From an uncultured Pseudomonadota bacterium (GTDB taxonomy: Bacteria > Pseudomonadota > Alphaproteobacteria > RF32 > CAG-239), in the NCBI GenBank assembly GCA_902761535.1, contig CACWKS010000002.1, positions 270,611 through 334,610 on the forward strand: a DNA stretch of 64,000 bases. Direction: 5' to 3'. Position numbers and translations under genes: made by a program. The stretch's first letter is position 1; the number at the start of each line of letters is the position of its first letter. The notes below the pieces were generated by a model that was given only the letters and a program-made list of their open reading frames with translations, was not told the DNA's origin and did no database searches. Shown here one piece after another: positions 12,727 to 53,476 of this stretch.

Positions 12727-13689
12727 TCACTGAGAAAGAATTTCACATAACACCATGTAAGATCTTTCCTCAAAGGGGTGAATCAGATTGGCCGCAATAC
12801 ATTCAACCACACCTGAGCTCAACCTTCTCTCAGAAGAAACTATCTCCTTTTGAGCCGCTGAATCCCAAATACCTATTTGCTCGGCATAGTAGCGAATCTT
12901 ACCCTCATCACCCGAGGACAAGAGCGCCACTTGTGACTTGGCTGACAAGCCGCCGAACTTTTTGAGATAAAACTTCAAAAAATCAATATCCTGAGAAACC
13001 AGTGTAATTTCATCTTCAGGATAAAACGGCACGTTTGAGTACTCAATCAAGTCGGATAAATCGTAAACTTTTGTATCCTCTTTGACAATAAGAGATAACA
13101 ACCCTTGCGGGACAGGATGATGTTGCAAATACAACTTGCAACAGTACGATAAGAAAGAATTCTTCTCGACTTCCTCCCACACTTTCAGCCCCATTTTCTT
13201 TGTCACCTCATGATTGACAACGTAGAATACCTTATCCTTATCATCGGCGCTTTCCCAGAAACGATCCAACACAGAATCTTCAAATGTCCATCTTTGGATA
13301 TAAGCCATAACCAGATTTCTATTCTGGATCATAATGCGCCACAACTGGCGATGCAATGTGAAATCAAAGGGAAAAACAGTAATATACATCATCAGCGCCC
13401 CAAATTGCCCTTTTTGGGCAAGCGCCAAAAGCTTTCTTTGTATATCAATGGGAATTTCCCTAAGTTTTCTTTCTTGATTGACAATCTGGCCAATCAAGAA
13501 ACTAAAAGCATTGTCATCAGTGAGCACTTCATTCACTAGGGATTGTGGCAACGAATCCCCTCTGAAGCTTGCACGTCGAACGTTTTCTTCAATCCGCGCC
13601 AGCAATTGCACATGCGCTAACGCATTTATTTTCTGCTGTTCCATAAATAATATATTTAAGTTAATAATTAATTTTATAACCCACAACAT
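12727..13689 (-). CDS. hypothetical protein (about 305-320 aa), compositionally atypical (GC-richer)
   Basis: long ORF with about 45% GC vs about 35% flanks; no recognisable family; alternative start at 13644. Confidence 0.5.
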   Translation of the reverse strand: MLWVIKLIINLNILFMEQQKINALAHVQLLARIEENVRRASFRGDSLPQSLVNEVLTDDNAFSFLIGQIVNQERKLREIPIDIQRKLLALAQKGQFGALMMYITVFPFDFTLHRQLWRIMIQNRNLVMAYIQRWTFEDSVLDRFWESADDKDKVFYVVNHEVTKKMGLKVWEEVEKNSFLSYCCKLYLQHHPVPQGLLSLIVKEDTKVYDLSDLIEYSNVPFYPEDEITLVSQDIDFLKFYLKKFGGLSAKSQVALLSSGDEGKIRYYAEQIGIWDSAAQKEIVSSERRLSSGVVECIAANLIHPFEERSYMVLCEILSQ

Positions 13690-13750: not shown

Positions 13751-14686
13751 ATGAAAAATAAAATTACCTTCTCTGCCTCAAATGAGGTTAATAAGTATAT
13801 TTCTTCATGGTTTGATTGGCTTGCTTCAATCAAAGGTTATTCTGTTCATACCTGTGATGCTTATATTCGCGATTTATCGATATTTTTTAACTTTTATACC
13901 GATTATCTCGGAACATTACCTGAATTATCCGACCTTGAAAATATTGAAGTATCGGCATTTCGTGCTTTTTTAAGTCGTCGCAGTGCTAATCACATCACTA
14001 AAAGCTCGACCGCTCGCGAGATGTCAGCATTGCGGAGTTTTTTTCATTATCTCAATCGTCAAAAAATTATCACCAATACCGTTCTTTCAATTATCTCATC
14101 ACCAAGACAGGAAAAAATCATTCCCAAAGCACTCAATGACGATGATGCCCAAGATGTTATTCAAACTGCCGCCGAAAATAAAGTTGATTGGATCGGTGCT
14201 CGCGATTCGGCCATAATCACCCTGCTCTATGGCAGCGGTTTACGCATATCTGAAGCATTGTCATTGAATATCGGTGACATTTCCTCAAATGATTTTATTG
14301 TTATCAAAGGTAAAGGCAATAAAGAACGTATTGTTCCTCTTCTTCCGATATCCCGGCAAAAAATCGAAGAATATTTGCTGCTTTGTCCTTATCGACAACA
14401 TAATGGCGATCCGATTTTTGTCGGTGCACGAGGTGAAAGACTGCTGCCGCGTATTGTTCAACGCCGTCTTGCTCAACTGCGGGAAAAACTCAATTTACCC
14501 GATTCGCTCACCCCTCATGCCCTGCGTCATACTTTTGCCACCCAACTTTTGGCTGAAGGTGTTAATTTACGTGCTATTCAAGAGCTTCTCGGACATTCCT
14601 CTCTTTCCACCACCCAACGTTATACCGAAGTCGAAATTGAACACCTCAAAAAGGAATACGCTAAAGCCAACTTATTAGAGCAATAA
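13751..14686 (+). CDS. site-specific tyrosine recombinase XerC/XerD family
   Basis: C-terminal catalytic box ...HALRHTFATQLL...LLGHSSLSTTQRYTEV with catalytic Tyr. Confidence 0.85.
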   Translation: MKNKITFSASNEVNKYISSWFDWLASIKGYSVHTCDAYIRDLSIFFNFYTDYLGTLPELSDLENIEVSAFRAFLSRRSANHITKSSTAREMSALRSFFHYLNRQKIITNTVLSIISSPRQEKIIPKALNDDDAQDVIQTAAENKVDWIGARDSAIITLLYGSGLRISEALSLNIGDISSNDFIVIKGKGNKERIVPLLPISRQKIEEYLLLCPYRQHNGDPIFVGARGERLLPRIVQRRLAQLREKLNLPDSLTPHALRHTFATQLLAEGVNLRAIQELLGHSSLSTTQRYTEVEIEHLKKEYAKANLLEQ

Positions 14687-15200: not shown

Positions 15201-15938
15201 TTATGCTTTCTTTTTTGCTCCGGCTTTCTTTGATGCCGCTTTTTTAACAACATTTTTTTTGGTTGTTTTTTTATTTACTGCTTTAGATGCGGCAACTTTC
15301 GAAACCTTCGATTTTTTAGAAACTTGTTTGGCTGCGGATTTAGCTTTTGCCTTTGAAACAGCTTTTACTGCTACTTTATCAGCAACAACCTTTTTAACCG
15401 ATTTGGTTGAAACTTTCCTATTTTGCTGAACTTCTTTTTCCGTATCCATTTTAACCGGTTTACTCTTAAGTAAATCAACTGTTGGCAATTTTTTGACGTC
15501 AATTAAATTATATTTATCATCCAATTGACCGGCAATTGATTTTCCATACACCAAAACTGCAACCAATACTGCAAATACTATAACTACAGTCAAAAATTTG
15601 CGTAAAATTTCCACTCCGACCACAATCGTCATTACTTTTTCCAAATATTCCATTTCAACTATGGCAAATATTGAAGCAATTATTATCATAACCGCTGTAA
15701 AATATGGAATCCACCCTACCGATGCCAACATAGTGGCTGTAATCGGATGTCTGATCATCATATTATCAATTCTTTTAATCGGCACCAATATATTAAGCGG
15801 CAGTAAAAACAGTAATAACAACAAAGACAAAACACAATCCGTTATCAATGCCCCCCAACTTCCCTGCCAAATCAAAACCAGTGAAAATAACCAATAAATA
15901 CCGCCGATTATCAAACTTTGCTTCCAATATAAACTCAT
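15201..15938 (-). CDS. membrane protein (4-5 TM) with Lys/Ala-rich histone H1-like C-terminal tail
   Basis: hydrophobic N-terminal 150 aa; C-terminal 70 aa composed of KA/KS/KV repeats (…KAKSAAKQVSKKSKVSK…KKAGAKKKA); immediately downstream of lolD. Confidence 0.5.
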   Translation of the reverse strand: MSLYWKQSLIIGGIYWLFSLVLIWQGSWGALITDCVLSLLLLLFLLPLNILVPIKRIDNMMIRHPITATMLASVGWIPYFTAVMIIIASIFAIVEMEYLEKVMTIVVGVEILRKFLTVVIVFAVLVAVLVYGKSIAGQLDDKYNLIDVKKLPTVDLLKSKPVKMDTEKEVQQNRKVSTKSVKKVVADKVAVKAVSKAKAKSAAKQVSKKSKVSKVAASKAVNKKTTKKNVVKKAASKKAGAKKKA

Positions 15939-22193: not shown

Positions 22194-25100
22194 TTACTCT
22201 CTTTCACTACCATTTTGTTGTCTTACGGGACTATTTAGCGCATTATTATTTTGCGATGAAGGTGCTTTATTATTTGTATTATCGTCCTTACCATTTCTAC
22301 CGCTCAGTCTGCTTAATGCTGCTGCACCAACAAAACCTGCTACTAATCCTCCTCCGGCAACAACCGCACCTGTAAGACCATCTTTACTGCTTTCATTAGT
22401 AAAATTTCCGTCCAACTCCGGATTTGAAACAACGGTAGAATCTGCAACGGAAATATTAGAATCAGCCAATAATCCGGCATCAGCCAACTTCTCGGTAGTA
22501 GTTCCACTAATCGAATCGGCCACTCCTTCACCTGAGTTTCTTGCAGCACCTCTTAAAGCATTTATTTTATCTTGAGCTGCAGAAGTCTTATTATCGGTAT
22601 TGCCCTGTTGTAAATGCTCTCGAGAACCTCCTTGCGCTGTTGATCTAGCAATTCCTTTATCGGATTGATCGCGACTTTGAGTAGAATCTGCATGATTATT
22701 TGCTTCATTCTTCGATTGTACTGCACTTTCTTGATTAATTAACTGTTCGGTTCCGGTCAAATTGCCGCTTGCATCAAAATTACTACGCACTGCACTAATC
22801 TCCGCACCTTTATCATTATATTGATGATTGATAGTACTGTAAGAACCGTCACGATTGATAATTTTATCACTTTCAATCTGCCCGTTCTCCGATACCACCG
22901 TTTCTTGATGATAAGGCTTGCTATCATCTGCATAATTATCCGTGGTAATAATTGTTTTACCTCCAATAACTTCCTGAACTTGTTGATAATCAACACTTTG
23001 TCCGTCAGCAGAACGAATGATGTCAGTAGAACGAACAAAATTATCATCTTTATCATAAATATTCGTTTGTTCGGCTATTATGTTTCCATCGGCATTTTTC
23101 GTAGTTGCAATATCAGCTACTTGCCCGCTTGCCTCATCAATCTTTGATGTCCATTCGGTCTTTGATACCAAATTTCCGTCAGCATCTTCCCGAATTTCCG
23201 ATATCGGATTATTATCTTTATCCGCTACATATTCGGTGCTTCCCAAACAATTACGATTTCCGTCATATTCCATAGTATGAACAACATTATTACCAGAAGG
23301 ATCATAAGTAAAAAGCTTGTCTTGATGAAGTGTCAAATTACCATCTTTATCATAATAATCACTGGTTTCTTTTTGCTCATGTTGTGCATTTTCCCAAACA
23401 TCATTTTTAACACTTCCACCATCTTCGGTCGGAGAAATAACAACATCATGATGTTCAACCAATACACCATCGGCTCCGAATTTATCAACCATTTGGAAAG
23501 TCTCATTATTTTCCACCACTGTACGTGTATAAGCAGTTAAATCACCATTATCCGTCGAAACTGTTGTGATTTCCGGCTTAACATCTTCAAATACGATTCC
23601 CCGTGCATTGACCTCAGCAAGATTTTCAGACAGCGAGCCGACAGTCTCGGAAACCTCTCCAACACTTTCTGATACCCCCCTAGCCGCATCCATCACATCT
23701 TTAGATACAAATACCCCATTGGGCACAACCGGTCTGTCCTCAACAACAGTTTCTTGAATTACGACAACTCGTTCTCCATGACCATAATGATGAGCGTAAG
23801 GATGACCGCCATGCATTGCAGCGTTTATATCAGGAGTATTCATGTCTCTCATCACAGGTGCTGCTTCTCCTTGATAGACCATACCTTTCATTATATCTAT
23901 TGCATCTCCTTGATAGACCATACCTTTCATTATATCTATTGCATCTCCTTGATAGACCATACCTTTCATTATATCTGTTGCTTCTCCTTGATAGTCCATA
24001 TCTCTAGTATATCCAGCTGTTTCTTGATTTTGACCATAAGTCATCGAATCTCCAAATGCGGCAGAAAAATTAATACCTCTCGTATTTTCCGGATTGGAAA
24101 CCAAATTATTTACAGCTCGAACTTGTGCCTCTTGGTAAGATGTAGAGTAAATATTTTTTGTTTCTGAGAAACTTCCTGACGCAGCCGTTCTGTGACCGGC
24201 TGAATTTATGCCATTTCCACCGGCACTACCGCCTTGACTGCTTCCTTGATTGGCTGAATTTACGCCATTACCGCCGGAAACACCGCCTTGACTGCTTCCT
24301 TGATTGGCTGAATTTACGCCATTACCGCCGGAAACACCGTTTTGACCGCTTCCTTGGTTGGCTGAACTTCCGCCATTACCGCCGGAAGCGCCGTTTTGAC
24401 CGTTTCCTTGACCGACTGAACTTCCGCCATTACCGCCGGAAACACCATCTTGACCGCTTCCTTGATTGGTTGAACTTCCGGCATTTTCACCGGCTGTACC
24501 GCCTTGACTGTTTCCTTGACCGACTGAACTTCCGGCATTTTCACCGGCTGTACCGCCTTGACTGCTTCCTTGATTGGCTGAATTTACGCCATTACCGCCG
24601 GAAACACCGTCTTGACTACTTCCTTGATTGGCTGAACTTCCGCCATTTCCACCGGCACTACCGCCTTGGCTGCTTCCTTGGTTGGCTGAACTTCCGCCGG
24701 CTTGACTATTTGTATTATTATTGTCGAAAACACCGTCTTCTTCAGCCGCATTTTCAATTTGTCCACCAGTACTACCGTCTTGGTTATTTTCATGACCGGC
24801 ATAACTGTTTTCTTCACTGTTTTGCCCAACATCATTGCCTTTAACATCTTCAACCATTGTTGATTGATTTGAACTTTCCGCCGTCATATTACTATCTAAC
24901 CCCATATCGGTACCGGAAACAAAATCACTGTCAGTTAAATAGTTATCTTGTATACCATAAATAGTACTGGCAACATGTGACATATTTGTCACATTATCTG
25001 AACCGGAGGCAATCTGCTCTCCTCCGCCAAAAGAAAGTGCACCGCTTTTCCCTAACATAATAGCTCCACCGGTAACCAAAGCCTGACGCCAAACTTTCCA

Positions 25101-26828
25101 TTTATCTTTACCTTTCGGCGGAACTCTTTTACCGGTCCTTTTATCTAAAGGACCTTGCAATCCGTCACCCAATCTGCCGAGTGTTGCTGTAAGTGCCAAA
25201 GGAAGTCTGACCGCCATTGCATTTTGCATTTTTTGTGCAATCGGATTATTGGCCATCCCCGGTAAACTTGCTGTCAATCCGACTGTTGCTACCGTACTTG
25301 CCAACACGGACGCACCTTGAGCAATAACTTTAAGCTTGTTTTGTTTACAATACTGCTTAAAAGACAATTTTTCTTTGGTATAAGGATTATAACGCTCATT
25401 CTTAAAATCTTTAATCATTTTTCGTGTCGAAACAAAAGCACTTTTTGCTGCCACATAGGTAAACACAAAAGGTGCAACCTTCGGAGCAACATATGCAAAT
25501 CCAGCCATTGCTGCCATAGTTCCGAATGTAGTTAATGCCGGACATTTATCCGCAAGCTTTTTATAAGCTTGATCACCTTTTTTATACAACTTTATGAATG
25601 GATTGCTCGGCTTTTTAAGACTTTTTTGCAAATCTTTTGTCTGTTGTTTATAACTGTCAAAACGATATTTATGACAATCGCAAACCGCCGCAAAAACTTC
25701 TTGTTTTATAGTCGGATTTGTCTGTGCGTAATTGTAAAAATCATCACTCCCCTCTTTAGTAAGTTCCCTGATATCTGCTTGTATCTTTAATTTTTCTTCA
25801 TGCGAAAGTTTTTTATAATCAAAATTTTCCCCTTGTTTTTCTTTTAGTTGTTGTGCCTTATCATAAGCATATTGCGTAGCCAATAATTCCAATTCAAAAG
25901 CTCCTTTGGCAGTTATAATACTACCTTTATAGCTTTTCTTTTTCTCATCTTCCTCAGCACTTGAGAAATTTTTATCACTTAATAGTTCAAGAGTTGCATC
26001 ATTTTTAATTAAGTCCTCAAAAGCCAACTGGAAATCAGAATTTACCAAATCTAAATCGGCAAGTTTTGTATCATATAATCTTTCAACACTTACCCCGAGC
26101 TTCAACTCTTTACTATCAACCAAACCCTCTTGTTCAAATTGATTGATTTGCTCAATAACTTCTTCACACCTTGCCAATTCTTCTGCGTTTTCAGGAATAA
26201 CAATCCCCAAAAGCTTATTTTCTTGTTCCTTAGCATTGCCGGCTGTAAAATGATTTAATTCAATTCCTCGATTATAGGCATAATCAGCGACGTCCCTTTT
26301 ATGAAAATCATAAACAGCTTTTGCTACATCCCAAGATATATTACCAGAAAAATTAGCATCATACTTATCCTTATAAGTTTCACGAATTTTTGCAATATCG
26401 GTGATATCTTCCCCGGGAAATTCGTTTCTGAACAACTGTAATAACTTCAAATCATCTGCTATTTCTTTATTTTTGTCATTAAAAATATCTTTATAACCAT
26501 CATTTTTATTCGGATCTTCGTAAAAAGATTTACTCGCTTGTAATTTCGCTAATTCATCAAATCCCTCATATCCGTTATTAATCGGATCATAAATAATATC
26601 CGTATAACTTAATTTGCTCACATCACTGTCGCTTAAATCAAAAGTTTTCTCACCATTTATGATTTCATCATAATACTTTCCATTTTTAGCCATTTCATCC
26701 GCATAACTTTTTCCTGCATCAGTCAAAAAATCTTCTAAAGTTTTATCTTTATTTTCTTGCCTCCAAGCTTCATATGCCAGCCAGGCTTCCCACCCCAAAG
26801 CTCTCAAACTATCTTCTGTCCACGCCAT
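22194..26828 (-). CDS. giant repeat-containing protein (1544 aa), putative surface/effector protein, unknown family
   Basis: continuous ORF; no signal peptide; internal hydrophobic hairpin-like segments, G/S/N/Q-rich 18-aa tandem repeats, 13-aa repeats, YD/RHS-like dipeptide repeats, C-terminal Gly-rich hydrophobic anchor. Confidence 0.7.
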   Translation of the reverse strand: MAWTEDSLRALGWEAWLAYEAWRQENKDKTLEDFLTDAGKSYADEMAKNGKYYDEIINGEKTFDLSDSDVSKLSYTDIIYDPINNGYEGFDELAKLQASKSFYEDPNKNDGYKDIFNDKNKEIADDLKLLQLFRNEFPGEDITDIAKIRETYKDKYDANFSGNISWDVAKAVYDFHKRDVADYAYNRGIELNHFTAGNAKEQENKLLGIVIPENAEELARCEEVIEQINQFEQEGLVDSKELKLGVSVERLYDTKLADLDLVNSDFQLAFEDLIKNDATLELLSDKNFSSAEEDEKKKSYKGSIITAKGAFELELLATQYAYDKAQQLKEKQGENFDYKKLSHEEKLKIQADIRELTKEGSDDFYNYAQTNPTIKQEVFAAVCDCHKYRFDSYKQQTKDLQKSLKKPSNPFIKLYKKGDQAYKKLADKCPALTTFGTMAAMAGFAYVAPKVAPFVFTYVAAKSAFVSTRKMIKDFKNERYNPYTKEKLSFKQYCKQNKLKVIAQGASVLASTVATVGLTASLPGMANNPIAQKMQNAMAVRLPLALTATLGRLGDGLQGPLDKRTGKRVPPKGKDKWKVWRQALVTGGAIMLGKSGALSFGGGEQIASGSDNVTNMSHVASTIYGIQDNYLTDSDFVSGTDMGLDSNMTAESSNQSTMVEDVKGNDVGQNSEENSYAGHENNQDGSTGGQIENAAEEDGVFDNNNTNSQAGGSSANQGSSQGGSAGGNGGSSANQGSSQDGVSGGNGVNSANQGSSQGGTAGENAGSSVGQGNSQGGTAGENAGSSTNQGSGQDGVSGGNGGSSVGQGNGQNGASGGNGGSSANQGSGQNGVSGGNGVNSANQGSSQGGVSGGNGVNSANQGSSQGGSAGGNGINSAGHRTAASGSFSETKNIYSTSYQEAQVRAVNNLVSNPENTRGINFSAAFGDSMTYGQNQETAGYTRDMDYQGEATDIMKGMVYQGDAIDIMKGMVYQGDAIDIMKGMVYQGEAAPVMRDMNTPDINAAMHGGHPYAHHYGHGERVVVIQETVVEDRPVVPNGVFVSKDVMDAARGVSESVGEVSETVGSLSENLAEVNARGIVFEDVKPEITTVSTDNGDLTAYTRTVVENNETFQMVDKFGADGVLVEHHDVVISPTEDGGSVKNDVWENAQHEQKETSDYYDKDGNLTLHQDKLFTYDPSGNNVVHTMEYDGNRNCLGSTEYVADKDNNPISEIREDADGNLVSKTEWTSKIDEASGQVADIATTKNADGNIIAEQTNIYDKDDNFVRSTDIIRSADGQSVDYQQVQEVIGGKTIITTDNYADDSKPYHQETVVSENGQIESDKIINRDGSYSTINHQYNDKGAEISAVRSNFDASGNLTGTEQLINQESAVQSKNEANNHADSTQSRDQSDKGIARSTAQGGSREHLQQGNTDNKTSAAQDKINALRGAARNSGEGVADSISGTTTEKLADAGLLADSNISVADSTVVSNPELDGNFTNESSKDGLTGAVVAGGGLVAGFVGAAALSRLSGRNGKDDNTNNKAPSSQNNNALNSPVRQQNGSERE
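23862..24000. repeat. tandem 39-nt repeat x3-4 (encodes DIMKGMVYQGDAI)
   Basis: near-identical 39-mers tccttgatagaccatacctttcattatatctattgcatc visible in plus strand. Confidence 0.8.
24185..24700. repeat. tandem 54-nt repeat x about 9 (encodes NQGSSQGG(S/T/V)(A/S)GGNG(G/V)(S/N)SA)
   Basis: lines 24241-24300 and 24301-24360 nearly identical; period 54 nt within giant ORF. Confidence 0.85.
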
Positions 26829-26950: not shown

Positions 26951-26986
26951 AAAAAAATACTGCCGATTTTCAGCAGTATTTTTTTT
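26951..26986. terminator. rho-independent terminator downstream of tRNA-Thr (bidirectional)
   Basis: A7, stem atactgc/gcagtat, T8. Confidence 0.6.
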
Positions 26987-27000: not shown

Positions 27001-27076
<76 letters not shown>

Positions 27077-27112: not shown

Positions 27113-28381
27113 TTATTTGGCAAGCTTTTTTATACAATTAACAAAATCCTCGCCTCTTGCTTCAAAATTCTTATACATATTATAACTCGGTGCCGCCGGC
27201 GATAATATTATCCATCCGCTTTTTTTACTCATCTTCCAAGCCTCAGCAACCGCCTCGTCCATATCTGCTGCATTTATGACCAAAACCCCCTTAATTTTTG
27301 CTGCTTGACCTAATCTTACACCGGTATCCGGCAAAGTTATCAAACTAACCCTTTCGCCTAATTGTGCCAAATATTCTGCCAATTCCTTATAATCTTGTCC
27401 GCGGTCAAAACCTCCTGCAATCAATATAAGTTGCTGTCCCTTATCTAATGCCTTCAATGCCGCAATTGCCGTTTCCGGAGTGGTTGAAATACTATCGTCA
27501 ACAAAAGTCCTTTCATCTTTTTCCGCTACAATTGTCAATCTGTGCGGTAAAGCTTTGAAACTTTTGAAAGCTTCTTCACACTCTCTTAAATTCTCGCCCG
27601 TTAATTTTATCGCACTCAACACTGCACAGGCATTTTCGGCATTATGATCACCTAACAGCGGCAATACATCTTTTGCAAACAACCTCTGCTCGCCGTCATA
27701 AAAACTTCCGTTTTGCAAATGTATCCCGTTATCATTATTAAACCACTCAGCCGCCACGCCTTTTGTCATTTCCATAATTCGTTTATCTTTAAAATTAAGC
27801 AGTTTAGTTTTTGCCTGAGTTATCATATGCAATTTATCAGCCCAATAACGCTGATGACTGCCGTGCCATTGCAAATGCTCGGGATATAAGTTCAACAGGA
27901 TTCCTATATCGGCTGATCCTTGACAATCAGCACATTGATAACTCGACATTTCTGCAACCGCCCAATCCGCATCACTGTCAACCAAATCCACCAACGGACG
28001 CCCGATATTTCCCCCTAATTCGACTTTTTTACCTAATTCTTGCAAAGTATGATATAACAAAGCCGAAGTTGTGCTTTTGCCTTTAGTTCCGGTAACGGCA
28101 ATCACTTTCAGTTTATCCGGTTTATTGGCAAAAAACAAATTTGTTCCCGATGTAACAACTATTCCGTTTTCAACCGCCTTTTTTATTTCATCACGATACA
28201 GGCTCACCCCCGGCGATTTTATCAAAACCTGACATTTTGCAATATCTGCCGTGTTATCCTCGTTTATATTCACTATCTCAAATCCGGAACAATGCTTGGC
28301 TATTGCTTGCGATGCCGCCAAGCCTTCTTTACCTTGTCCCCATATACCGATAACTTTATTGTCTAAATTCTGCCATAACAT
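27113..28381 (-). CDS. Mur ligase, MurD family (UDP-MurNAc-L-Ala:Glu ligase); possibly MurD2-type
   Basis: full-length MurD architecture: N-terminal Rossmann IGIWGQGKEG, GTKGKSTT P-loop, MSSYQ, HRLT, C-terminal SPAAPSYNMYKNFEARGEDF; stand-alone (not in a dcw cluster). Confidence 0.8.
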   Translation of the reverse strand: MLWQNLDNKVIGIWGQGKEGLAASQAIAKHCSGFEIVNINEDNTADIAKCQVLIKSPGVSLYRDEIKKAVENGIVVTSGTNLFFANKPDKLKVIAVTGTKGKSTTSALLYHTLQELGKKVELGGNIGRPLVDLVDSDADWAVAEMSSYQCADCQGSADIGILLNLYPEHLQWHGSHQRYWADKLHMITQAKTKLLNFKDKRIMEMTKGVAAEWFNNDNGIHLQNGSFYDGEQRLFAKDVLPLLGDHNAENACAVLSAIKLTGENLRECEEAFKSFKALPHRLTIVAEKDERTFVDDSISTTPETAIAALKALDKGQQLILIAGGFDRGQDYKELAEYLAQLGERVSLITLPDTGVRLGQAAKIKGVLVINAADMDEAVAEAWKMSKKSGWIILSPAAPSYNMYKNFEARGEDFVNCIKKLAK

Positions 28382-29669
28382 TCTTAAATCTCTTTGGTAT
28401 TAAATGCTGATGATTGGGAATAAACAAGCCGAGATTTTTCTGATAAACTTTTGGTGTCAGATTTTTAACGATATAATCATTTTGCCATTCCGGTCTTTGT
28501 GCCAGCTGTTCCAATGCCCAATTTGATTCCTTAAATTCGCCCACACATTCAAAAGGTTTATGCCCGCTCAAACCCAACAATTCTCGATAATTATCAATTT
28601 GTGTAACATCATCTAAAGGATTTTTTCCCACAATCTCAATTAATTTTTGTTTATCCATAAACGGAGCCAATATCAAAAATACAAAACGACATTTGTCACA
28701 ACTGCCGCACCAATGATTCAGTCTTTTATTCTCATCTAACTTAAAAGCCTTATTACAGCTGGTAAAAATATCAAAATAATCTCCGCATTTTTGTGTAAAC
28801 AGCTTGGCAATATGAATTTCACTGATCGGGCGCAATAATGAAAAATAGCGAAAATCCGGTGTAATCTTTTGCGTCAGTTCATAAAAATCCTTTTCAAAAT
28901 CAAATGATTTACTGTATTGATGATTGATTTTAACTCCGTCATAAGTCATATTTCCCGATGAAGCCGAACGCTCACAACTCATCACCACATATTTCTTTTC
29001 ATAAATTATTGCCGCTGTCCAAAGCATAAAAGCTAAAATACCGGTTATCGGCACATGCCCGTTATAAACTTTTCCGCTTTCATTAAGTTTCAGCAATTCC
29101 GGTGCTATCTGACGTTTTACGATAATTTTGGGATTACCGGCTCTGTCCATCACCTCGGCAATCGGTTTAGGATACCCGCAAGCGATTGTTGTTGCTTTAA
29201 TATTCATATCTTTTAATAACTTTAACGCCAAACAGGAATCTTTTCCTCCGCCGATCGGTACCAAAGTCTCATCATCCAATTTTATACTGTAAGTTTGACG
29301 TCTGGCATCTTCGCTGTATGGAAAACTGATTTTATCAAAAAAATGCAAGCTGTTACGCACCGCAAACTCGCCCAAACCGTTAATATAAAATTTTCGGAAA
29401 AATTCAGCTTCAGCTTTGGTCAATGTATAAATATCCGTAACCGTTTTTTTAGGCAAAAAAGCTTTATAATAACTTATTCCCGCAGCCAAATGCCAATAAC
29501 GCAAAACTTGAGTTAATGCTTTTTTTTGATTTTCACTTAATACAAACGGTGCTCCCGGAAATTTAAATTTCTCGGTAAAATCATAAATTTCATCAACAGC
29601 ATAGCCGAATTCAACCTCACCGTTTTCTAACGAAAAATTTATACTCTTAAAGTGAAATTCATCATACAC
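28356..29669 (-). CDS. PP-loop (SGGxDS-type) ATP pyrophosphatase-family protein with C-terminal Cys cluster; candidate MurL-like epimerase partner of MurD
   Basis: PIGGGKDS motif; WCGSCDKCRF cysteine cluster; overlaps MurD-like start by 26 nt (translational coupling). Confidence 0.45.
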   Translation of the reverse strand: MYDEFHFKSINFSLENGEVEFGYAVDEIYDFTEKFKFPGAPFVLSENQKKALTQVLRYWHLAAGISYYKAFLPKKTVTDIYTLTKAEAEFFRKFYINGLGEFAVRNSLHFFDKISFPYSEDARRQTYSIKLDDETLVPIGGGKDSCLALKLLKDMNIKATTIACGYPKPIAEVMDRAGNPKIIVKRQIAPELLKLNESGKVYNGHVPITGILAFMLWTAAIIYEKKYVVMSCERSASSGNMTYDGVKINHQYSKSFDFEKDFYELTQKITPDFRYFSLLRPISEIHIAKLFTQKCGDYFDIFTSCNKAFKLDENKRLNHWCGSCDKCRFVFLILAPFMDKQKLIEIVGKNPLDDVTQIDNYRELLGLSGHKPFECVGEFKESNWALEQLAQRPEWQNDYIVKNLTPKVYQKNLGLFIPNHQHLIPKRFKNVMAEFRQ

Positions 29670-29681: not shown

Positions 29682-32024
29682 TTATTTTTCAGCCTGATGC
29701 AATACGATTTGCGTAAACGGAATTTCAATTCCCTCTTCTTCAAAACGTTTATTTATGGCAAAACGCACATCGCTGGGCGTTGTCCAACCGCTCCAAATAT
29801 CATTGACATAAAACCGCACTTCAAAATCCAAACTGCTTGATCCGAAATCTTGGAACAATACATAAGGTGCCGGCTTTTTAGAAACTTTAGGATGCGAAGC
29901 CGCACATTCCAACAAGACTTTTTTAACCTTGTCAACATCTGTTCCGTAGGCAACCCCGACCTTAACTCCGTAACGAGCCCAACTGTTTTGGTGAGTAAGA
30001 TTGGTAACCGAATTTGATAAAACTTTAGCATTGGGAATTATCAGGCTGGCGCGATTAAAAGTTTCAATTTCGGTTGAACGAATATTAATCTGTTTAACCT
30101 GACCTTCTTCGCCGTTTATAATTACCCAATCCCCGACTTTTATCGGCCGTTCAAACAACATGATAATGCCGGAAACAAAATTATTGACAATATCTTGCAA
30201 ACCAAGTCCGATACCTACCGATAATGCGCCGGCGATTAAAGCGATGTTGGTAAGGTTGCCTCCCATAATCGCAATCGCCAACAAGGCCGATAACACATAA
30301 CCTATATAAGCAAAACCCGAAGCCAATGAATGTTTGGTTCCTGTATCAATCGAAGTTTTTTCCAATAATTTAAACTCGATTCGGTCTTGCAAAAATCTTA
30401 TCAACCACAAGCATAATACAAAGGCTAAAATTCCCCAAAATATCGAAATCAGAGAAATTTTTACTCCGCCGACCGTAAAACCGGAAACAGCTTTATAAGC
30501 AATGTTTTGCAACACATCAATCGGCATTCCCCATAATATCAACAATCCGGTGATTAAAGCCAGCACCATCAGCGGTTCAACTGCCAATCCAAACCAAAAA
30601 TCAACTTTACGCAGAAAAATACGACGGACCCGAAAACTCTTCACCCACAAAGCCATAAATAAAACTCTTCTCGCCACATCATAGAAAAAGCGCCGTAAAA
30701 TTGAATAAGCAAATATTGCTATCAACGACAATAATGTTCGATTAACCGCAAAAAATGCCAATCTTGCATAACCGCAAAAAGCCAAACCTATCACCACTGC
30801 CGCAAACAAGGTAACCAATACCCCTATACGTGATGCTCTGGCCTTAGCAGCTGATGCGGCTTCATCACTTTCTTTCTTGTCATTATCACTGGTAAAATAA
30901 ATATAAGCCAACCACACCATACAAACGGCTCTAACCGTTGCAGACAAGGCCATTAAATATGCCAACAGCTCTATCGAATAATTTTGCTTGGCTACAATCG
31001 CCAACAAAATTGAGAATATACCCACCGTATAAATTGTAAAGTTAATAGCCTTAAACAAACGCTTGGCTTTATAAGTTGACATATTTATCAACCGCCATTT
31101 CTCGTTATAAGGCGTCAAAACAACACGCGCAATTGCCCGTCCCATAATCACAAACAACACATAATATAAAGTTGTCCGCAACACCATTTTAAGCAAATCA
31201 TTATTCCAAAATGCAATCTGATTAAGATGAAACCAACAATATAAAACTATTGCTGTGGGAATAATCCCGTAAGCACACCACACCGATACCGAGGCTGCAA
31301 TCTTATTTCCCAAACGAATATTTTCCAATTCTTTGCGATAGCCCCAACGTTCTATCATCCAACGCCTTAAATAATACCCTACAATTGCAATAACGATTAA
31401 TAGGCTCAAAAACTTGAATACCGCCACTCCGAAACCGGAATTTTTATCTTCTTTATACTCATCATATGCCGAAACCGGTGATTTAACAATATCAGCTAAT
31501 AATCCTACCAATTCACGATTAACCCGCCACAACACTGCAGGGTTAATCAACCGCAAATCAGATTTCAGCATATTACCCCACAGCATTTGATTACGTGCTT
31601 CAAAAATACGCAAATTTATCTCTTCGATTTTGGCCAAAAGTATATCTATTTCCGATAATCTTGCTTTTTCATCTTTCAATTCGGCACTGAATTCTTTACG
31701 CTTTTGGGCTATAACTTTTGACTCACCGGTTTCCTCGTTTTTATCGCCTAAAGCATCCAATCTTTTTTCTATAAGTTTTACTTCCAAATCAATATTTTGG
31801 CGTGATGAAATAAGAAGCGAAAAAGTCTCGTTCAGATACGAAGTTTTTTCGACCAAAGCTCTTATATCGGGAGCACTTTCTTTGGTCATAGCTTCAATAG
31901 ATTTAAGCTGAGCCGATATTTCTTTATAACTCAGCTCATCACCCAAATTATCGACATAACTATTTTGCGCCCAAGCATTGCTCCATAATAAAATTGCAAT
32001 AAAACAAATAATTAACTTCTTCAT
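29682..32024 (-). CDS. mechanosensitive channel, MscK/KefA-like (MscS family with large N-terminal periplasmic coiled-coil domain)
   Basis: signal peptide, long coiled-coil region, about 11 TM, conserved MscS core ...DWVIINGEEGQVKQINIRSTEIETFNRASLIIPNAKV. Confidence 0.85.
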   Translation of the reverse strand: MKKLIICFIAILLWSNAWAQNSYVDNLGDELSYKEISAQLKSIEAMTKESAPDIRALVEKTSYLNETFSLLISSRQNIDLEVKLIEKRLDALGDKNEETGESKVIAQKRKEFSAELKDEKARLSEIDILLAKIEEINLRIFEARNQMLWGNMLKSDLRLINPAVLWRVNRELVGLLADIVKSPVSAYDEYKEDKNSGFGVAVFKFLSLLIVIAIVGYYLRRWMIERWGYRKELENIRLGNKIAASVSVWCAYGIIPTAIVLYCWFHLNQIAFWNNDLLKMVLRTTLYYVLFVIMGRAIARVVLTPYNEKWRLINMSTYKAKRLFKAINFTIYTVGIFSILLAIVAKQNYSIELLAYLMALSATVRAVCMVWLAYIYFTSDNDKKESDEAASAAKARASRIGVLVTLFAAVVIGLAFCGYARLAFFAVNRTLLSLIAIFAYSILRRFFYDVARRVLFMALWVKSFRVRRIFLRKVDFWFGLAVEPLMVLALITGLLILWGMPIDVLQNIAYKAVSGFTVGGVKISLISIFWGILAFVLCLWLIRFLQDRIEFKLLEKTSIDTGTKHSLASGFAYIGYVLSALLAIAIMGGNLTNIALIAGALSVGIGLGLQDIVNNFVSGIIMLFERPIKVGDWVIINGEEGQVKQINIRSTEIETFNRASLIIPNAKVLSNSVTNLTHQNSWARYGVKVGVAYGTDVDKVKKVLLECAASHPKVSKKPAPYVLFQDFGSSSLDFEVRFYVNDIWSGWTTPSDVRFAINKRFEEEGIEIPFTQIVLHQAEK

Positions 32025-41374: not shown

Positions 41375-41537
41375 TTTTTCTCTCCGTTATTCTACCATAT
41401 TATCAACTGATCAACTAAAAGCAATATCTTTTCTTTCTTAAAACAGATTAACCGCGAATAAATATTGACAAAAGCTATTTACCTGTTAAAAAGAAAATCA
41501 AATGAAATTATTAATTACTTAAATTAAATCAATTATT

Positions 41538-42101
41538 ATGAAAGAAAAAGCAATTACCAAACTCTTTATCCAAATGATGCAACATAAGGATAAAGCTGGT
41601 CGCATTGAGGTGTTTCTTCGTCTCTTGGGAATATTAGGGATAAAACAAGCAGATCTCTATCATCCTAAAACCGAATCAGAAACCCAACCACCGACCGAAT
41701 TGTCGGATGAATTTGATCTTCTTATCCGGACAAAAAAGGGAGAATTGCGGCGCGTTCCGTTTTCTCAACGGAATTTGGGAAAACCAGTTGGAATTTTTCC
41801 GATTAACGGCTCCCCGATGTATCTCGAGTTAGACGAGGTTGCAGACAAATGCCCCAACGATAAGGATGTTGACATTTTCCGTCTGCCTGAGGTAGACGAG
41901 CTGGAGCGAATTGACATTGCCAAAATCAATCCTTATTTGCAGGCACTCGACAAACCCACCTTAGAAGGATGTTACTTGGCTGAAAATTCGAAGTATATGC
42001 ACCAGTGCGGCTGGATATATAACTTCGACAATCAAGGTAGTGATTACTACGGAGGAAATGAGCCGAGCAAACTCCGTTACGCGGGGTATTTCTATGACTA
42101 A
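41538..42101 (+). CDS. hypothetical protein, paralog family member B (187 aa)
   Basis: see 40221..40778; followed by terminator. Confidence 0.5.
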   Translation: MKEKAITKLFIQMMQHKDKAGRIEVFLRLLGILGIKQADLYHPKTESETQPPTELSDEFDLLIRTKKGELRRVPFSQRNLGKPVGIFPINGSPMYLELDEVADKCPNDKDVDIFRLPEVDELERIDIAKINPYLQALDKPTLEGCYLAENSKYMHQCGWIYNFDNQGSDYYGGNEPSKLRYAGYFYD

Positions 42102-42550: not shown

Positions 42551-42626
42551 TGGTGATCCCAGCGAGACTCGAACTCGCGTTACCGCCGTGAGAGGGCGAT
42601 GTCCTAGACCGCTAGACGATGGGACC
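42551..42626 (-). tRNA. tRNA-Glu (anticodon CUC)
   Basis: minus-strand read GGTCCCATCGTCTAGCGGTCTAGGACATCGCCCTCTCACGGCGGTAACGCGAGTTCGAGTCTCGCTGGGATCACCA; cloverleaf, encoded CCA. Confidence 0.85.
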
Positions 42627-42773: not shown

Positions 42774-43553
42774 TTAATCTTTAATATATTGTTTAGCTGT
42801 TTCGTAATCTTCCGGAGTATTGATATCGGCAGGAACTCTTTTATCAAGGCGAATATCATCAACCAACATTGCTCTAATTTCCATACCATTTTCCAAAGCA
42901 CGTAACTGCTCCAAAGATTCTCTAGCTTCCAAAACCCCGACCGGCAATGAAACCATTTTCTTTAATGATGCCGCTTTGAATACATAAATACCGATATGTT
43001 GATACAAATCCTGATTGGGACATTTCTCCGGATTACGCGTAAACGGCGCCGTAGCGCGGGTAAAATACAGACAGCGAGCTTCTTTTTCGCCTTCTCTCAA
43101 TCCCATAACCGCCTTAACTACCGCCGGATTGGTCTTATCTGCCTCGTTTTTAATCACAAAAGCCGCCGTGGCAATATCACAACCGGTGCGTTCAACCATT
43201 TCAATCAACGGCAGATTAACCTGCGGATTAACATTGATATTGTCACCCTGAAAATCAACCACAATGTCATATTTGTCGCCATTAGGATCCAATACTTTTA
43301 AAGCCGCGGCAATTCTGTCTGTACCTGATGGAAGTTTGGGATCGGTCAAAATCGCTTTAGCCCCGAATTTTGCACACTCATCCACAATTTCCTGATCACC
43401 GGCGGCAATCGCAATATCGCAGTCCGGCAGATATTTTTTGACATTTTCATAAACGCGTTGCACCGCTGTTTTACCGTTAATATCCAACAAAGGTTTGTTA
43501 GGCAGTCTGGTCGAAGCCAACCTTACCGGCATTAAAGTGATAACTCGTGACAT
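42774..43553 (-). CDS. kdsB: 3-deoxy-manno-octulosonate cytidylyltransferase (CMP-KDO synthetase)
   Basis: N-terminal IPARLASTRLPNKPLLDI-type motif, 259 aa. Confidence 0.85.
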   Translation of the reverse strand: MSRVITLMPVRLASTRLPNKPLLDINGKTAVQRVYENVKKYLPDCDIAIAAGDQEIVDECAKFGAKAILTDPKLPSGTDRIAAALKVLDPNGDKYDIVVDFQGDNINVNPQVNLPLIEMVERTGCDIATAAFVIKNEADKTNPAVVKAVMGLREGEKEARCLYFTRATAPFTRNPEKCPNQDLYQHIGIYVFKAASLKKMVSLPVGVLEARESLEQLRALENGMEIRAMLVDDIRLDKRVPADINTPEDYETAKQYIKD

Positions 43554-43568
43554 TTTTCATTTCCTTTC

Positions 43569-44243
43569 TTAATTTTGAACCGTATTATTTTCCAACCAAT
43601 TTTTAAACTCAACCACATCATGAACTTCCGGCACATTTGCCAATTCCGGCGGCAAAGCGGAAGTAAACTCACAACGCATTCTCACCGGCTGAACACCTGC
43701 TTTGATAGCCGCTTCAATATTATAAATTCGATCATCAACCAAAATTGTCTCTTCTGCTTTCAAACCGTATTTATCCAAACAATATTTCAACATATCCTCT
43801 TTGGCGGAATCATGCATAAAAGCCCCGTGTTGCACACATTCAATCGTCAAAAAGTCACTGACTTCGGCAAGCAATTTATTGAGTAATTTTTTCTTGGTGG
43901 CAACATCAAAAGTCGCTGACATGGTAAACTGGCGATACCCTTTTTCATGCAGTTCTTTTAATACCTCAACCACATGCGGATAAAGCGGACGAGCCGAAAA
44001 AAACTCCCAACTGGCGCAAAAATCTTTATCCATTTCTACACCCATCTCCGGATGAGTTTTAAGCTCTAATGCCCCGTATTTAGGCACAATCGGTAACACT
44101 TTAGGCAAATCTTGCCATTGCATATTGCCAAACATCGGTTCATATTTGGGATGATTGGTCAAAAAATTAAAATAAGCCCGATTAAGATCAGCCAAAACTC
44201 CGTCCACATCCCAAAATATATTTTTAATCAATTTCTTACTCAT
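43569..44243 (-). CDS. HAD-superfamily hydrolase (5'(3')-deoxyribonucleotidase-like)
   Basis: motif I FWDVDGVLAD; HAD length/layout. Confidence 0.6.
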   Translation of the reverse strand: MSKKLIKNIFWDVDGVLADLNRAYFNFLTNHPKYEPMFGNMQWQDLPKVLPIVPKYGALELKTHPEMGVEMDKDFCASWEFFSARPLYPHVVEVLKELHEKGYRQFTMSATFDVATKKKLLNKLLAEVSDFLTIECVQHGAFMHDSAKEDMLKYCLDKYGLKAEETILVDDRIYNIEAAIKAGVQPVRMRCEFTSALPPELANVPEVHDVVEFKNWLENNTVQN

Positions 44244-44252
44244 ATTTTACCT

Positions 44253-45524: not shown

Positions 45525-45527
45525 TAC

Positions 45528-46019: not shown

Positions 46020-46156
46020 TATTACCTGTCCTGAAATTTTTATCTGCCTGAAAGCATAAAACAATCACAAAGTTTTGCAACAGCTTTAGGCAACTTTTGC
46101 GCAAATAATACTGAATATATTGTAATCTTTAACCGATGTTATTTGTTTCTGCCCAA

Positions 46157-46184
46157 TTGCACAAAAATACTTGCATTTTATAAT
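46157..46184 (+). promoter_or_regulatory. sigma-70-like promoter TTGCAC-N16-TATAAT
   Basis: ttgcacaaaaatacttgcattttataat; drives structured leader/sRNA upstream of XRE regulator. Confidence 0.5.
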
Positions 46185-46190
46185 CTTTTA

Positions 46191-46362: not shown

Positions 46363-46382
46363 TTCAATAGGAGAGTATAAGT

Positions 46383-46874: not shown

Positions 46875-46951
46875 TTAACTTATAAGCTATCATTTGTTGA
46901 TATAAAAAACGGACAAGTTGCCTCGCCCGTTATAACCAAAGCGGAAAATTA

Positions 46952-50430: not shown

Positions 50431-50442
50431 TTTTAAAACAAA

Positions 50443-51323: not shown

Positions 51324-51373
51324 AACAACCCTCCTTTTTCATATTTTAGTTTCAAAACAAATACATCCCGTTT

Positions 51374-53451: not shown

Positions 53452-53476
53452 TTTTTGCGCTCAAAATAAAAAAAAT

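What the first reader, a model, noticed from the sequence alone, without database searches (positions are those of the whole stretch)
27113..29669. Stand-alone MurD-family ligase translationally coupled to a PP-loop ATPase (MurD2/MurL-like pair?)
A complete MurD-type Mur ligase lies outside any dcw cluster, between a tRNA and mscK. It overlaps by 26 nt a 437-aa protein carrying a PP-loop (PIGGGKDS) and a C-terminal Cys cluster (WCGSCDKC). A MurD paralog adjacent to an ATP-dependent partner is the arrangement reported for the alternative D-Glu pathway in Xanthomonas. In that pathway MurD2 adds L-Glu and MurL epimerises it on the UDP-MurNAc-dipeptide. I cannot confirm from memory that MurL carries a PP-loop, so the MurL assignment is an inference from gene context.
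Basis: partly seen in the sequence, partly recalled or inferred. Interest (0 to 1): 0.7.

Follow-up and report, generated by a model that had tools for sequence, protein, structure and literature searches.

The report
MurL–MurD2 alternative D-glutamate cell-wall gene pair
These two overlapping genes, from an uncultured rumen or gut alphaproteobacterium, are a new example of the known MurD2/MurL route, which puts D-glutamate into the cell wall by attaching L-glutamate first and then inverting it with ATP.

Summary

**The two genes**
[quoted passage not shown] It matches NCBIfam NF041275 at E 2.5e-130 and carries precomputed Pfam MurL_N and MurL_epimerase_C hits.
- 27113..28381(-) encodes a 422-aa MurD-type ligase that overlaps murL by 26 nt.
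- The ligase carries the MurD2-type residues at the published stereospecificity positions. E168 and R327 correspond to Xanthomonas oryzae MurD2 E197 and R358. P398, Y400 and I298 also match the MurD2 type.

**Comparative evidence**
- A MurD-type gene lies directly downstream of murL in 79 of 80 other genomes, including Xanthomonas and Stenotrophomonas.
- Natural MurL–MurD2 fusion proteins exist.

**MurL fold**
- The GGGKDS loop and a QueC-like four-cysteine motif are invariant.
- This fits the published ATP-to-AMP chemistry.

**Verdict**
This is a new member of a known kind, of modest interest. Absence of murI and of a canonical murD from the rest of the genome could not be tested. No biochemistry was possible.

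The parts
28356..29669 (-). [quoted passage not shown] It has a GTG start with an AGGA Shine-Dalgarno sequence 8 nt upstream.
   Evidence: The ORF is. NF041275 matches at E 2.5e-130 and 435 bits over the full length. Precomputed Pfam hits are PF26299 and PF26298. The start region was read. The AF2 model has pLDDT 93.3.
29235..29258 (-). PP-loop of MurL, PIGGGKDS (residues 138-145): the predicted ATP alpha/beta-phosphate and PPi binding loop.
   Evidence: Coordinates are. G140-G142, K143 and D144 are invariant in 81 sequences. hhalign places the motif on the SGGQDS of E. coli QueC. The fold matches PP-loop enzymes.
28689..28757 (-). QueC-like four-cysteine motif of MurL, C305-x15-C321-x2-C324-x2-C327: a predicted structural Zn site.
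   Evidence: All four Cys are invariant in 81 MurL sequences. The pattern parallels E. coli QueC, C-x8-C-G-H-C-A-A-C. Zn binding is inferred and was not measured.
28536..28559 (-). Invariant KPFECVGE motif of MurL (residues 371-378, with C375 and E374). It is a candidate acid/base or catalytic element, and this role is an inference.
   Evidence: K371, P372, F373, E374, C375, V376 and G377 are invariant in 81 sequences.
27113..28381 (-). [quoted passage not shown]
   Evidence: The ORF is. TIGR01087 scores 309.6 bits, with Mur_ligase_M and Mur_ligase_C domains. The specificity residues are E168, I298, R327, P398 and Y400. The conserved catalytic residues K102, E144, H169 and K183 are retained.
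28356..28381 (-). The 26-nt overlap between the murL stop and the murD2 start, predicted to give translational coupling.
   Evidence: The sequence was read. The same 26-nt overlap occurs in 12 of the 19 gut and rumen alphaproteobacterial loci (L005-L023). Overlaps of 20, 14 or 1 nt occur in most Xanthomonadales loci. In all, about 63 of 79 loci overlap.
27001..27076 (-). tRNA-Thr(CGU), 36 nt downstream of murD2 and probably co-transcribed with it.
   Evidence: ARAGORN and Rfam at 71 bits.
26951..26985 (-). Intrinsic-terminator-like hairpin with a T-run, which closes the transcription unit after the tRNA.
   Evidence: One search found a 16-pair stem followed by a T-rich tail. The sequence was read.

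Best explanation
The locus is a two-gene murL-murD2 module for the alternative, racemase-independent route to the D-Glu residue of peptidoglycan.

**Step 2, MurL (28356..29669).**
- It binds ATP at its PP-loop (GGGKDS).
- It adenylates the free alpha-carboxylate of the terminal L-Glu and releases PPi.
- It inverts the now acidic C-alpha.
- The reaction runs one way. The product then enters the normal MurE step.

**Expression.** The 26-nt overlap probably couples translation, so the two enzymes are made together.

**What is shown and what is inferred.**
- Shown here: family membership by sequence, MurD2-type specificity residues, conserved pairing and fusions, and a QueC-like PP-loop fold for MurL.
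- Taken from the literature: the reaction scheme and AMP formation in X. oryzae, Micromonospora and Salinispora.
- Inferred: that this organism's enzymes do the same, the roles of the PP-loop, the Cys4 motif and C375, H250, K254 and E233, and translational coupling.
For: **MurL membership**
- NF041275 matches at E 2.5e-130 over the full length.
- Precomputed Pfam hits are MurL_N and MurL_epimerase_C.
- The window MurL is 39-41% identical to the MurL of Xanthomonas albilineans and Stenotrophomonas maltophilia. Those two proteins score 821-823 bits on the same model.

**Ligase residues**
- Compared with E. coli MurD positions D182, K319, K348, A414 and L416, the window protein has E, I, R, P and Y.
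- All 73 complete murL-linked ligases show the same pattern, with F or Y at the last position.
- Five canonical MurDs with solved structures have D or T, K, K or R, A, and L, F or W.
- PMC8788868 reports that E197 and R358 of X. oryzae MurD2 set L-Glu specificity, and that the E197D/R358K double mutant switches it to D-Glu.

**Pairing**
- A MurD-like gene lies directly downstream of murL on the same strand in 79 of 80 loci.
- Twelve of the 150 best cluster representatives are MurL-MurD2 fusions, and one is a MurD2-MurL fusion.
- Flanking genes are not conserved, so only the pair travels together.

**Mechanism**
- The AF2 model has pLDDT 93.3 and pTM 0.92.
- Foldseek's best hit is QueC 2pg3 at E 4.4e-5.
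- The PP-loop and the four Cys are invariant.
- Published AMP formation and ATP dependence of MurL fit this (PMC5808125, PMC8788868).

**The organism makes and recycles peptidoglycan:** AnmK is in the window.
Against: - No enzymology or genetics exists for this organism.
- The NCBIfam score of 435 bits is below the curated cut-off of 700. That cut-off separates Xanthomonadales (781-823 bits) from all other MurL-bearing lineages tested (448-496 bits).
- Absence of murI, of a D-amino-acid aminotransferase and of a canonical murD was checked only in the 64-kb window. The rest of the genome is unseen.
- R at the K348 position also occurs in a canonical streptococcal MurD, so it is not diagnostic on its own.
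- In some distant fusion proteins the D182 position is D rather than E.
- Sequence-profile comparison with QueC is weak (hhalign probability 3.7%). The PP-loop assignment therefore rests on the predicted fold and the motif.
Confidence: 0.85

Rival explanations
1. The ligase is an ordinary D-Glu-adding MurD that lies outside the dcw cluster. The neighbour is an unrelated QueC-like PP-loop enzyme, for example in nucleoside or tRNA modification or in a QueC-like defence protein of the Cap9 or QatC type.
For: The ligase passes the TIGR01087 murD cut-off. The best structural neighbours of the partner protein are QueC and the QueC-like defence proteins Cap9 and QatC.
Against: - The partner matches the MurL model end to end at E 2.5e-130, and no QueC model matches it.
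- Identity to QueC and Cap9 is only 12-17%.
- No CBASS or Qat partner genes lie nearby.
- The ligase has E, I and P where all five canonical MurDs have D or T, K and A.
- The pairing with a ligase of this type is conserved in 79 of 80 loci, and fusions exist.
Confidence: 0.04
2. The pair is a true MurD2/MurL system but is not the sole D-Glu route. The genome also keeps murI (or a D-amino-acid aminotransferase) and a canonical murD, so the pair is a back-up or a conditionally used branch.
For: Only 64 kb of the genome was seen. The source contig alone is 374 kb, and the genome was not searched. Nothing here excludes a second pathway.
Against: - The review states that the bacteria known to carry MurD2/MurL lack a D-Glu-forming gene (PMC8788868).
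- No murI, Aminotran_4 or dcw gene was found among the window's ORFs of 150 aa or more that were scanned.
- Both points are weak evidence for this particular genome.
Confidence: 0.12
3. The pair acts on a different substrate. For example, it could build a non-peptidoglycan glutamyl conjugate, or the ligase could add another amino acid that the partner then epimerises.
For: Sequence does not prove substrate. Identity to the Xanthomonadales MurL and MurD2 homologues fetched here is only 34-41%.
Against: - The UDP-MurNAc-L-Ala ligase catalytic set is intact: K102, E144, H169 and carbamylated-Lys K183.
- Sixty MurL positions are invariant between this protein and the Xanthomonadales enzymes.
- The specificity positions are identical to the MurD2 type.
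- Orthologues as distant as Micromonospora and Salinispora were shown in vitro to do the same reaction (PMC8788868).
Confidence: 0.04

Closest known systems
MurL (XOO_1319) / MurD2 (XOO_1320) of Xanthomonas oryzae, and the orthologue SmltD (MurD2) of Stenotrophomonas maltophilia (Feng et al. 2017, as reviewed in PMC8788868 and PMC5808125)
   Same: - The two genes are adjacent on the same strand, with murL directly upstream in the 79 related loci examined here (X. oryzae itself was not fetched).
- The MurL match is full-length.
- Residues at the MurD2 stereospecificity positions are the same: E and R, plus P and an aromatic residue.
- MurL keeps the invariant PP-loop, the four Cys and the KPFECVGE motif.
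- Start and stop codons overlap.
   Different: - Identity to the Xanthomonadales proteins fetched here is only about 40% for MurL and about 35% for MurD2.
- The MurL score is below the Xanthomonadales-specific NCBIfam cut-off.
- The host is an uncultured, low-GC (about 37%) rumen or gut alphaproteobacterium, a group not in the published list of genera.
- The overlap is 26 nt rather than 20 nt.
- The ligase is shorter, at 422 aa against 461-479 aa.
- The activity is untested.
[quoted passage not shown]
   Same: It has the same three-domain Mur ligase architecture. The ATP-binding GxxGKS/T loop, K115, E157, H183 and the carbamylated K198 equivalents are all present. The window ligase also passes the TIGR01087 cut-off.
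   Different: - Identity to E. coli MurD is 29%.
- D182 is E, K319 is I, K348 is R and A414 is P.
- The gene lies outside the dcw cluster and is always paired with murL.
- The predicted amino-acid substrate is L-Glu.
QueC (7-cyano-7-deazaguanine synthase) and the QueC-like proteins Cap9 (CBASS) and QatC (QatABCD)
   Same: - A glycine-rich xGGxDS loop follows the first strand.
- A C-terminal Cx(n)CxxCxxC cysteine motif is present.
- The chemistry starts with adenylation of a carboxylate.
   Different: - Identity is 12-17% and no QueC sequence model matches.
- MurL has an extra N-terminal domain of about 125 aa and a helical C-terminal extension of about 100 aa.
- The first Ser of SGGxDS is Gly.
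- The substrate is a UDP-muramyl dipeptide.
- The adenylate is hydrolysed after C-alpha inversion rather than attacked by ammonia.
Glutamate racemase MurI
   Same: It supplies the D-Glu stereocentre of peptidoglycan.
   Different: MurI is cofactor-independent, reversible and acts on free glutamate. Its fold is unrelated. No such gene was seen in the window.

Membership tests
[quoted passage not shown] | Full-length sequence homology to the curated MurL models | tested here: met
   NF041275 matches at E 2.5e-130, residues 4-432 against model positions 9-443 of 447. Precomputed Pfam hits are PF26299 MurL_N and PF26298 MurL_epimerase_C.
[quoted passage not shown] | Score above the curated NCBIfam equivalog cut-off of 700 bits | tested here: inconclusive
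   The window protein scores 435 bits, below the cut-off. The model is built for Xanthomonadales: X. albilineans scores 822.6, S. maltophilia 820.5 and Rhodanobacter 780.9. Every non-Xanthomonadales murL tested scores 448-496. The cut-off therefore marks the clade, not the function.
[quoted passage not shown] | Family-invariant residues present | tested here: met
   Sixty positions are invariant across the window protein and 80 genomes. They include GGGKD, C305, C321, C324, C327, NHQ-x-x-K and KPFECVG.
[quoted passage not shown] | Encoded next to a MurD2-type ligase | tested here: met
   The two genes overlap by 26 nt in the window. The same arrangement occurs in 79 of 80 loci, and fusion proteins exist.
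[quoted passage not shown] | ATP- and Mg-dependent, AMP-forming, unidirectional L-to-D epimerisation of the dipeptide | not testable with these tools
   This is biochemistry reported only for the X. oryzae, Micromonospora and Salinispora enzymes (PMC8788868).
[quoted passage not shown] | MurD-type Mur ligase with an intact catalytic set | tested here: met
   TIGR01087 scores 309.6 bits, with Mur_ligase_M and Mur_ligase_C domains. K102, E144, H169 and K183 align with E. coli K115, E157, H183 and K198.
[quoted passage not shown] | Glu and Arg at the positions of X. oryzae MurD2 E197 and R358 (E. coli D182 and K348), which set L-Glu specificity | tested here: met
   The window protein has E168 and R327, and also P398 and Y400 (X. 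oryzae P433 and F435) and I298 at the K319 position. All 73 murL-linked ligases share this pattern, with F or Y at the L416 position. The five canonical MurDs differ (positions from PMC8788868).
[quoted passage not shown] | Preference for L-Glu over D-Glu in vitro | not testable with these tools
   An enzyme assay is needed.
MurD2/MurL pathway (organism level) | The genome lacks murI and a D-amino-acid aminotransferase, and MurD2 is the only MurD homologue | not testable with these tools
   Only the 64-kb window is held. None of these genes was found among its ORFs of 150 aa or more that were scanned. The rest of the genome could not be fetched.
PP-loop ATP pyrophosphatase superfamily (the MurL core works like one) | Rossmann-like alpha/beta fold with a glycine-rich SGGxDS-type loop after strand 1 | tested here: met
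   - Foldseek matches QueC at E 4.4e-5.
- The loop is GGGKDS, with Ser1 replaced by Gly, and is invariant.
- All this rests on a predicted structure, not a solved one.
QueC family proper | Match to QueC sequence models | tested here: not met
   No QueC family appears in the Pfam or NCBIfam scans. hhalign against E. coli QueC gives probability 3.7% over the 35 PP-loop columns only. The protein is therefore QueC-like in fold but is not a QueC.
QueC family proper | Four-cysteine Zn site | tested here: inconclusive
   The sequence patterns are parallel (MurL C-x15-CxxCxxC against QueC C-x8-CxxCxxC) and the cysteines are invariant.

The most novel reading that the evidence does not exclude
MurL has been described in the open literature as 'lacking known conserved domains'. 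The reading here is that MurL is a QueC-type PP-loop ATP pyrophosphatase with a Cys4 Zn knuckle, an added N-terminal domain and a C-terminal helical extension.

This gives a concrete, testable mechanism for the only known ATP-consuming, one-way peptide epimerase:
- adenylation of the Glu alpha-carboxylate at GGGKDS with PPi release;
- C-alpha inversion by invariant residues such as C375, H250, K254, E233 or E374;
- hydrolysis of the adenylate.

The pathway is also far more widespread than the published genus list:
- 1151 clusters at 50% identity at E <= 1e-30;
- many uncultured gut and rumen Alphaproteobacteria, one Sericytochromatia MAG and one Spirochaetales MAG.

The probability given is that this reading is both correct and not yet published. 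The fold assignment on its own is about 0.9 likely.
Probability: 0.3. Interest if true: 0.5.

Novelty: new member of a known kind. Interest (0 to 1): 0.3.

Why it matters
MurD2/MurL replaces glutamate racemase in the organisms that use it, and it has been proposed as a narrow-spectrum antibiotic target.

- **Wider host range.** The module is present and highly conserved in a large group of uncultured rumen and gut Alphaproteobacteria. This widens the known host range and matters for any inhibitor aimed at the pathway.
- **Metabolic reconstruction.** Models of these MAGs would otherwise flag D-Glu synthesis as a gap.
- **Annotation rule for MurD2.** The residue pattern that separates MurD2 from MurD is E, I and P at E. 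coli positions 182, 319 and 414. It held in all 73 linked ligases and could serve as an annotation rule, because current models call these proteins plain murD.
- **Mechanism of MurL.** The QueC-like PP-loop fold gives a rational set of residues for mechanistic work on MurL.

Tried and rejected
- **Local Pfam scan of MurL.** It found no families, because that copy lacks PF26298 and PF26299. This is a limit of the library, not a negative result.
- **PDB sequence search with MurL.** It found only a chance hit at E 0.26, so no solved MurL structure was found by sequence search of the PDB.
- **hhalign of the MurL alignment against E. coli QueC.** The match was weak (probability 3.7%, E 0.011, 35 columns), although it did place PP-loop on PP-loop.
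- **afdb50 fold search.** The library was unavailable.
- **Conserved neighbours.** The upstream asd-like and MscK-like genes, hisS, the 1544-aa protein and flgF are not found next to murL in any of the 80 other loci. E. coli MraY and FtsW queries found only a RodA/FtsW-family gene 5 kb away in L019 and L020, and it is not part of an operon with murL. A link between the pair and the dcw cluster or the asd gene was therefore dropped.
- **Promoter scan.** The number of promoter-like sites was no higher than in shuffled sequence (20 against 21.2), so no promoter is claimed.
- **Cluster look-up.** It gave no source names or accessions for the two proteins.
- **L416 position as a discriminator.** It was rejected because two canonical MurDs (PDB 4buc and 7sir) also have Phe there.
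- **Genome-wide test for murI or a second murD.** It was not possible, because only one scan of the genome collection was allowed and whole genomes cannot be fetched.
Full report
**1. What is in the sequence**

One is 27113..28381 (422 aa, ATG start). The other is 28356..29669 (437 aa, GTG start, with an AGGA Shine-Dalgarno sequence 8 nt upstream). They overlap by 26 nt in different frames.

The flanks are also as described.
- Downstream lies tRNA-Thr(CGU) at 27001..27076, followed by a strong terminator-like hairpin at 26985..26951.
- Upstream, 12 nt from the murL start, a 780-aa mechanosensitive channel gene ends (29682..32024). Its C-terminal part is related to MscK.
- That gene overlaps by 4 nt a divergent aspartate-semialdehyde-dehydrogenase-like gene at 32021..32998.

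The motifs PIGGGKDS (residues 138-145) and WCGSCDKC (residues 320-327) are present.

**2. Source organism**

The identical proteins occur on rumen and gut metagenome contigs and on a 374-kb NCBI contig. The nearest relatives in a species-representative genome collection are uncultured 'Alphaproteobacteria bacterium' MAGs. They come from sheep rumen, goat abomasum, rabbit and human gut, and their MurL is 45-59% identical.

The window has about 37% GC. It carries ordinary chromosomal genes: F1 ATP synthase, priA, flagellar rod and ring genes, hisS, mutL, pgi, lspA and the peptidoglycan-recycling kinase AnmK.

**3. The partner protein is MurL**

- NCBIfam NF041275 is the UDP-N-acetyl-alpha-D-muramoyl-L-alanyl-L-glutamate epimerase model. 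It matches end to end at E 2.5e-130 and 435 bits.
- The public collection's precomputed Pfam hits are MurL_N (PF26299) and MurL_epimerase_C (PF26298). The local Pfam copy lacks these two models, which explains the empty scan.
- The score of 435 bits is below the curated cut-off of 700, so I calibrated the cut-off. MurL from X. albilineans, S. maltophilia and Rhodanobacter scores 781-823 bits. MurL from Emcibacter, from a Sericytochromatia MAG and from a rumen alphaproteobacterium scores 448-496 bits.
- The cut-off therefore delimits Xanthomonadales, as the model's name says. It does not delimit the function. The literature reports in-vitro-confirmed MurL/MurD2 orthologues as far away as Micromonospora and Salinispora (PMC8788868).

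**4. The ligase is of the MurD2 type**

It is a complete MurD-like Mur ligase. The review PMC8788868 reports four differences between X. oryzae MurD2 and E. coli MurD near the glutamate site:

| E. coli MurD | X. oryzae MurD2 |
|---|---|
| D182 | E197 |
| K348 | R358 |
| A414 | P433 |
| L416 | F435 |

The same review reports that the E197D/R358K double mutant converts MurD2 into a D-Glu ligase. It also reports that K319T lets E. coli MurD accept L-Glu.

I aligned the window protein with E. coli MurD, with two other canonical MurDs from PDB alignments, and with the ligases encoded next to murL in other genomes. The results at the E. coli positions are:

| E. coli position | Window protein | 73 complete murL-linked ligases | Five canonical MurDs with solved structures |
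|---|---|---|---|
| D182 | E168 | E | D or T |
| K319 | I298 | I | K |
| K348 | R327 | R | K or R |
| A414 | P398 | P | A |
| L416 | Y400 | F or Y | L, F or W |

The 73 linked ligases include those of X. albilineans and S. maltophilia. The five canonical MurDs are from E. coli, P. aeruginosa, PDB 7sir, Thermotoga 4buc and S. agalactiae 3lk7.

E, I and P at positions 182, 319 and 414 therefore discriminate cleanly in this sample. R348 and the aromatic residue at 416 do not.

The catalytic residues are kept: K102, E144, H169 and K183, equivalent to E. coli K115, E157, H183 and K198.

**5. The pairing is the conserved unit**

- In 79 of the 80 best loci from 596 confirmed genome hits, a MurD-like gene follows murL directly on the same strand. 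The exception is a contig that ends.
- By my start-codon assignment, about 63 of 79 pairs overlap. The overlap is 26 nt in 12 of the 19 gut and rumen alphaproteobacterial loci (L005-L023). It is 20 nt in most Xanthomonadaceae loci and 14 or 1 nt in most of the remaining loci.
- Nothing else around the pair is conserved, even in the nearest relatives.
- An exhaustive search of 1.84 billion cluster representatives found 2520 MurL-like clusters at E <= 1e-3 and 1151 at E <= 1e-30.
- Fourteen of the best 150 representatives are long proteins. Twelve are MurL-MurD2 fusions, one is a MurD2-MurL fusion, and one is an aspartokinase-MurL fusion.
- These fusions support a functional partnership independently of gene order.

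**6. How MurL probably works**

The open reviews say that MurL needs ATP and Mg, forms AMP, runs only from L to D, and 'lacks known conserved domains' (PMC5808125, PMC8788868).

An AlphaFold2 model built on 45 homologues is confident, with pLDDT 93.3 and pTM 0.92.
- LarE, ThiI, GMP synthase, NAD synthetase, TtuA, NcsA and TilS follow. All are PP-loop ATP pyrophosphatases.
- Foldseek agrees, with QueC 2pg3 at E 4.4e-5.

The sequence motifs fit the fold.
- The loop GGGKD (G140-D144) sits where SGGxDS sits in QueC. It is invariant in 81 MurL sequences, from rumen alphaproteobacteria to Xanthomonas.
- The cysteines C305, C321, C324 and C327 are invariant. Their pattern (SC...WCGxCxKC) parallels the QueC zinc motif (TC...GCGHCAAC).

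PP-loop enzymes adenylate their substrate and release PPi, which matches the published AMP stoichiometry. My mechanistic reading has three steps:
- adenylation of the Glu alpha-carboxylate;
- inversion at the acidified C-alpha by some of the invariant polar residues (C375 and E374 in KPFECVGE, H250 and K254 in NHQxSK, E233);
- hydrolysis of the adenylate.

The fold and motif conservation are shown here on a predicted structure. The residue roles and zinc binding are inference.

**7. Comparison with what is known, and novelty**

This is the MurD2/MurL alternative peptidoglycan pathway of Feng et al. 2017. That work is cited here only through the reviews PMC8788868 and PMC5808125.
- The present host group, uncultured gut and rumen Alphaproteobacteria, is not on that list.
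- Curated family models already exist, and the pair occurs in hundreds of genomes.

I therefore classify it as a new member of a known kind.

The QueC-like PP-loop assignment is not in any paper I could search. However, subscription journals are not covered, and dedicated Pfam MurL families exist. It may therefore already be known.

**8. What remains open**

- I could not test whether the genome lacks murI, a D-amino-acid aminotransferase or a canonical murD. None is among the window ORFs scanned, but the window is a small part of the genome.
- No activity can be shown with these tools.
- Translational coupling is inferred from the conserved overlap.

**9. Verdict**

I have about 0.85 confidence that this is a functional MurL-MurD2 module. 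Interest is modest (0.3), because the finding extends a known system and does not reveal a new one.

Noticed in passing
window 22194..26828 (-): A 1544-aa ORF has no Pfam or NCBIfam match. It contains in-frame tandem repeats: a 54-nt unit (18 aa, Gly/Asn/Ser/Gln-rich) repeated 9.3 times at 24198..24698, and a 39-nt unit (13 aa, DIMKGMVYQGDAI-like) repeated 3.6 times at 23862..24000. It ends in a hydrophobic stretch. In another assembly of the same locus (L001) the gene called here is only 603 aa and is preceded by a 3.2-kb gap without calls. Either the repeat region assembles differently or the gene is called differently.
   Followed up: partly
window 32021..32998 (-) and P0266: A divergent aspartate-semialdehyde-dehydrogenase-like gene heads the same gene string as murL-murD2. 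It scores 172 bits against the 223-bit cut-off of NF011456. One distant MurL representative (P0266, 918 aa) is fused to an aspartokinase (AA_kinase and ACT domains). Both enzymes belong to the DAP/lysine branch that supplies the third residue of the peptidoglycan stem peptide. The asd-like neighbour is not conserved in the 80 other loci.
   Followed up: partly
P0121, P0125, P0145, P0149, P0167, P0188, P0210, P0213, P0230, P0236, P0251, P0259 (MurL-MurD2) and P0214 (MurD2-MurL): These are natural single-polypeptide fusions of the two enzymes, in both orders, among the best 150 cluster representatives. In some of the distant fusions the E. coli D182 position is D or A rather than E.
   Followed up: partly
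MurL model m8e79c8fedde4 against PDB 9nto_B, 9y01_B and 9y02_B: The closest solved structures to the MurL core include the QueC-like anti-phage proteins Cap9 (type IV CBASS) and QatC (QatABCD), alongside QueC itself. This points to a wider radiation of QueC-like adenylating domains onto non-nucleobase substrates.
   Followed up: no
L018 (contig CAVDQP010000029.1), L025, L039: murL-murD2 pairs occur on contigs labelled Holdemanella biformis (a Firmicute), Candidatus Sericytochromatia and Spirochaetales. The Holdemanella contig is 49% identical to the window MurL and resembles the gut alphaproteobacterial loci, so it may be mis-binned. In L039 the ligase ORF is only 204 aa, so it is truncated or frameshifted.
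   Followed up: no
window 37923..40151 (+) and 13751..14686 (+): A 742-aa PcfJ-like protein is followed by three small ORFs with no family match (40221..42101), next to tRNA-Glu at 42551..42626. There is also a XerC/D-type tyrosine recombinase. The first group may be a remnant of a mobile element.
   Followed up: no
window 42774..55581 (-): A run of envelope and glycan genes lies here: a CMP-sugar cytidylyltransferase (CTP_transf_3), a HAD hydrolase, AnmK, PgpA, an Aas-like acyltransferase/acyl-ACP synthetase, a LicD-family protein, two GT2 glycosyltransferases and one GT8 glycosyltransferase. It looks like an LPS or surface-polysaccharide decoration region.
   Followed up: no
window 581..1924, 12727..13689, 15201..15938 (all -): Three ORFs of 447, 320 and 245 aa have no Pfam or NCBIfam match at the thresholds used.
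   Followed up: no
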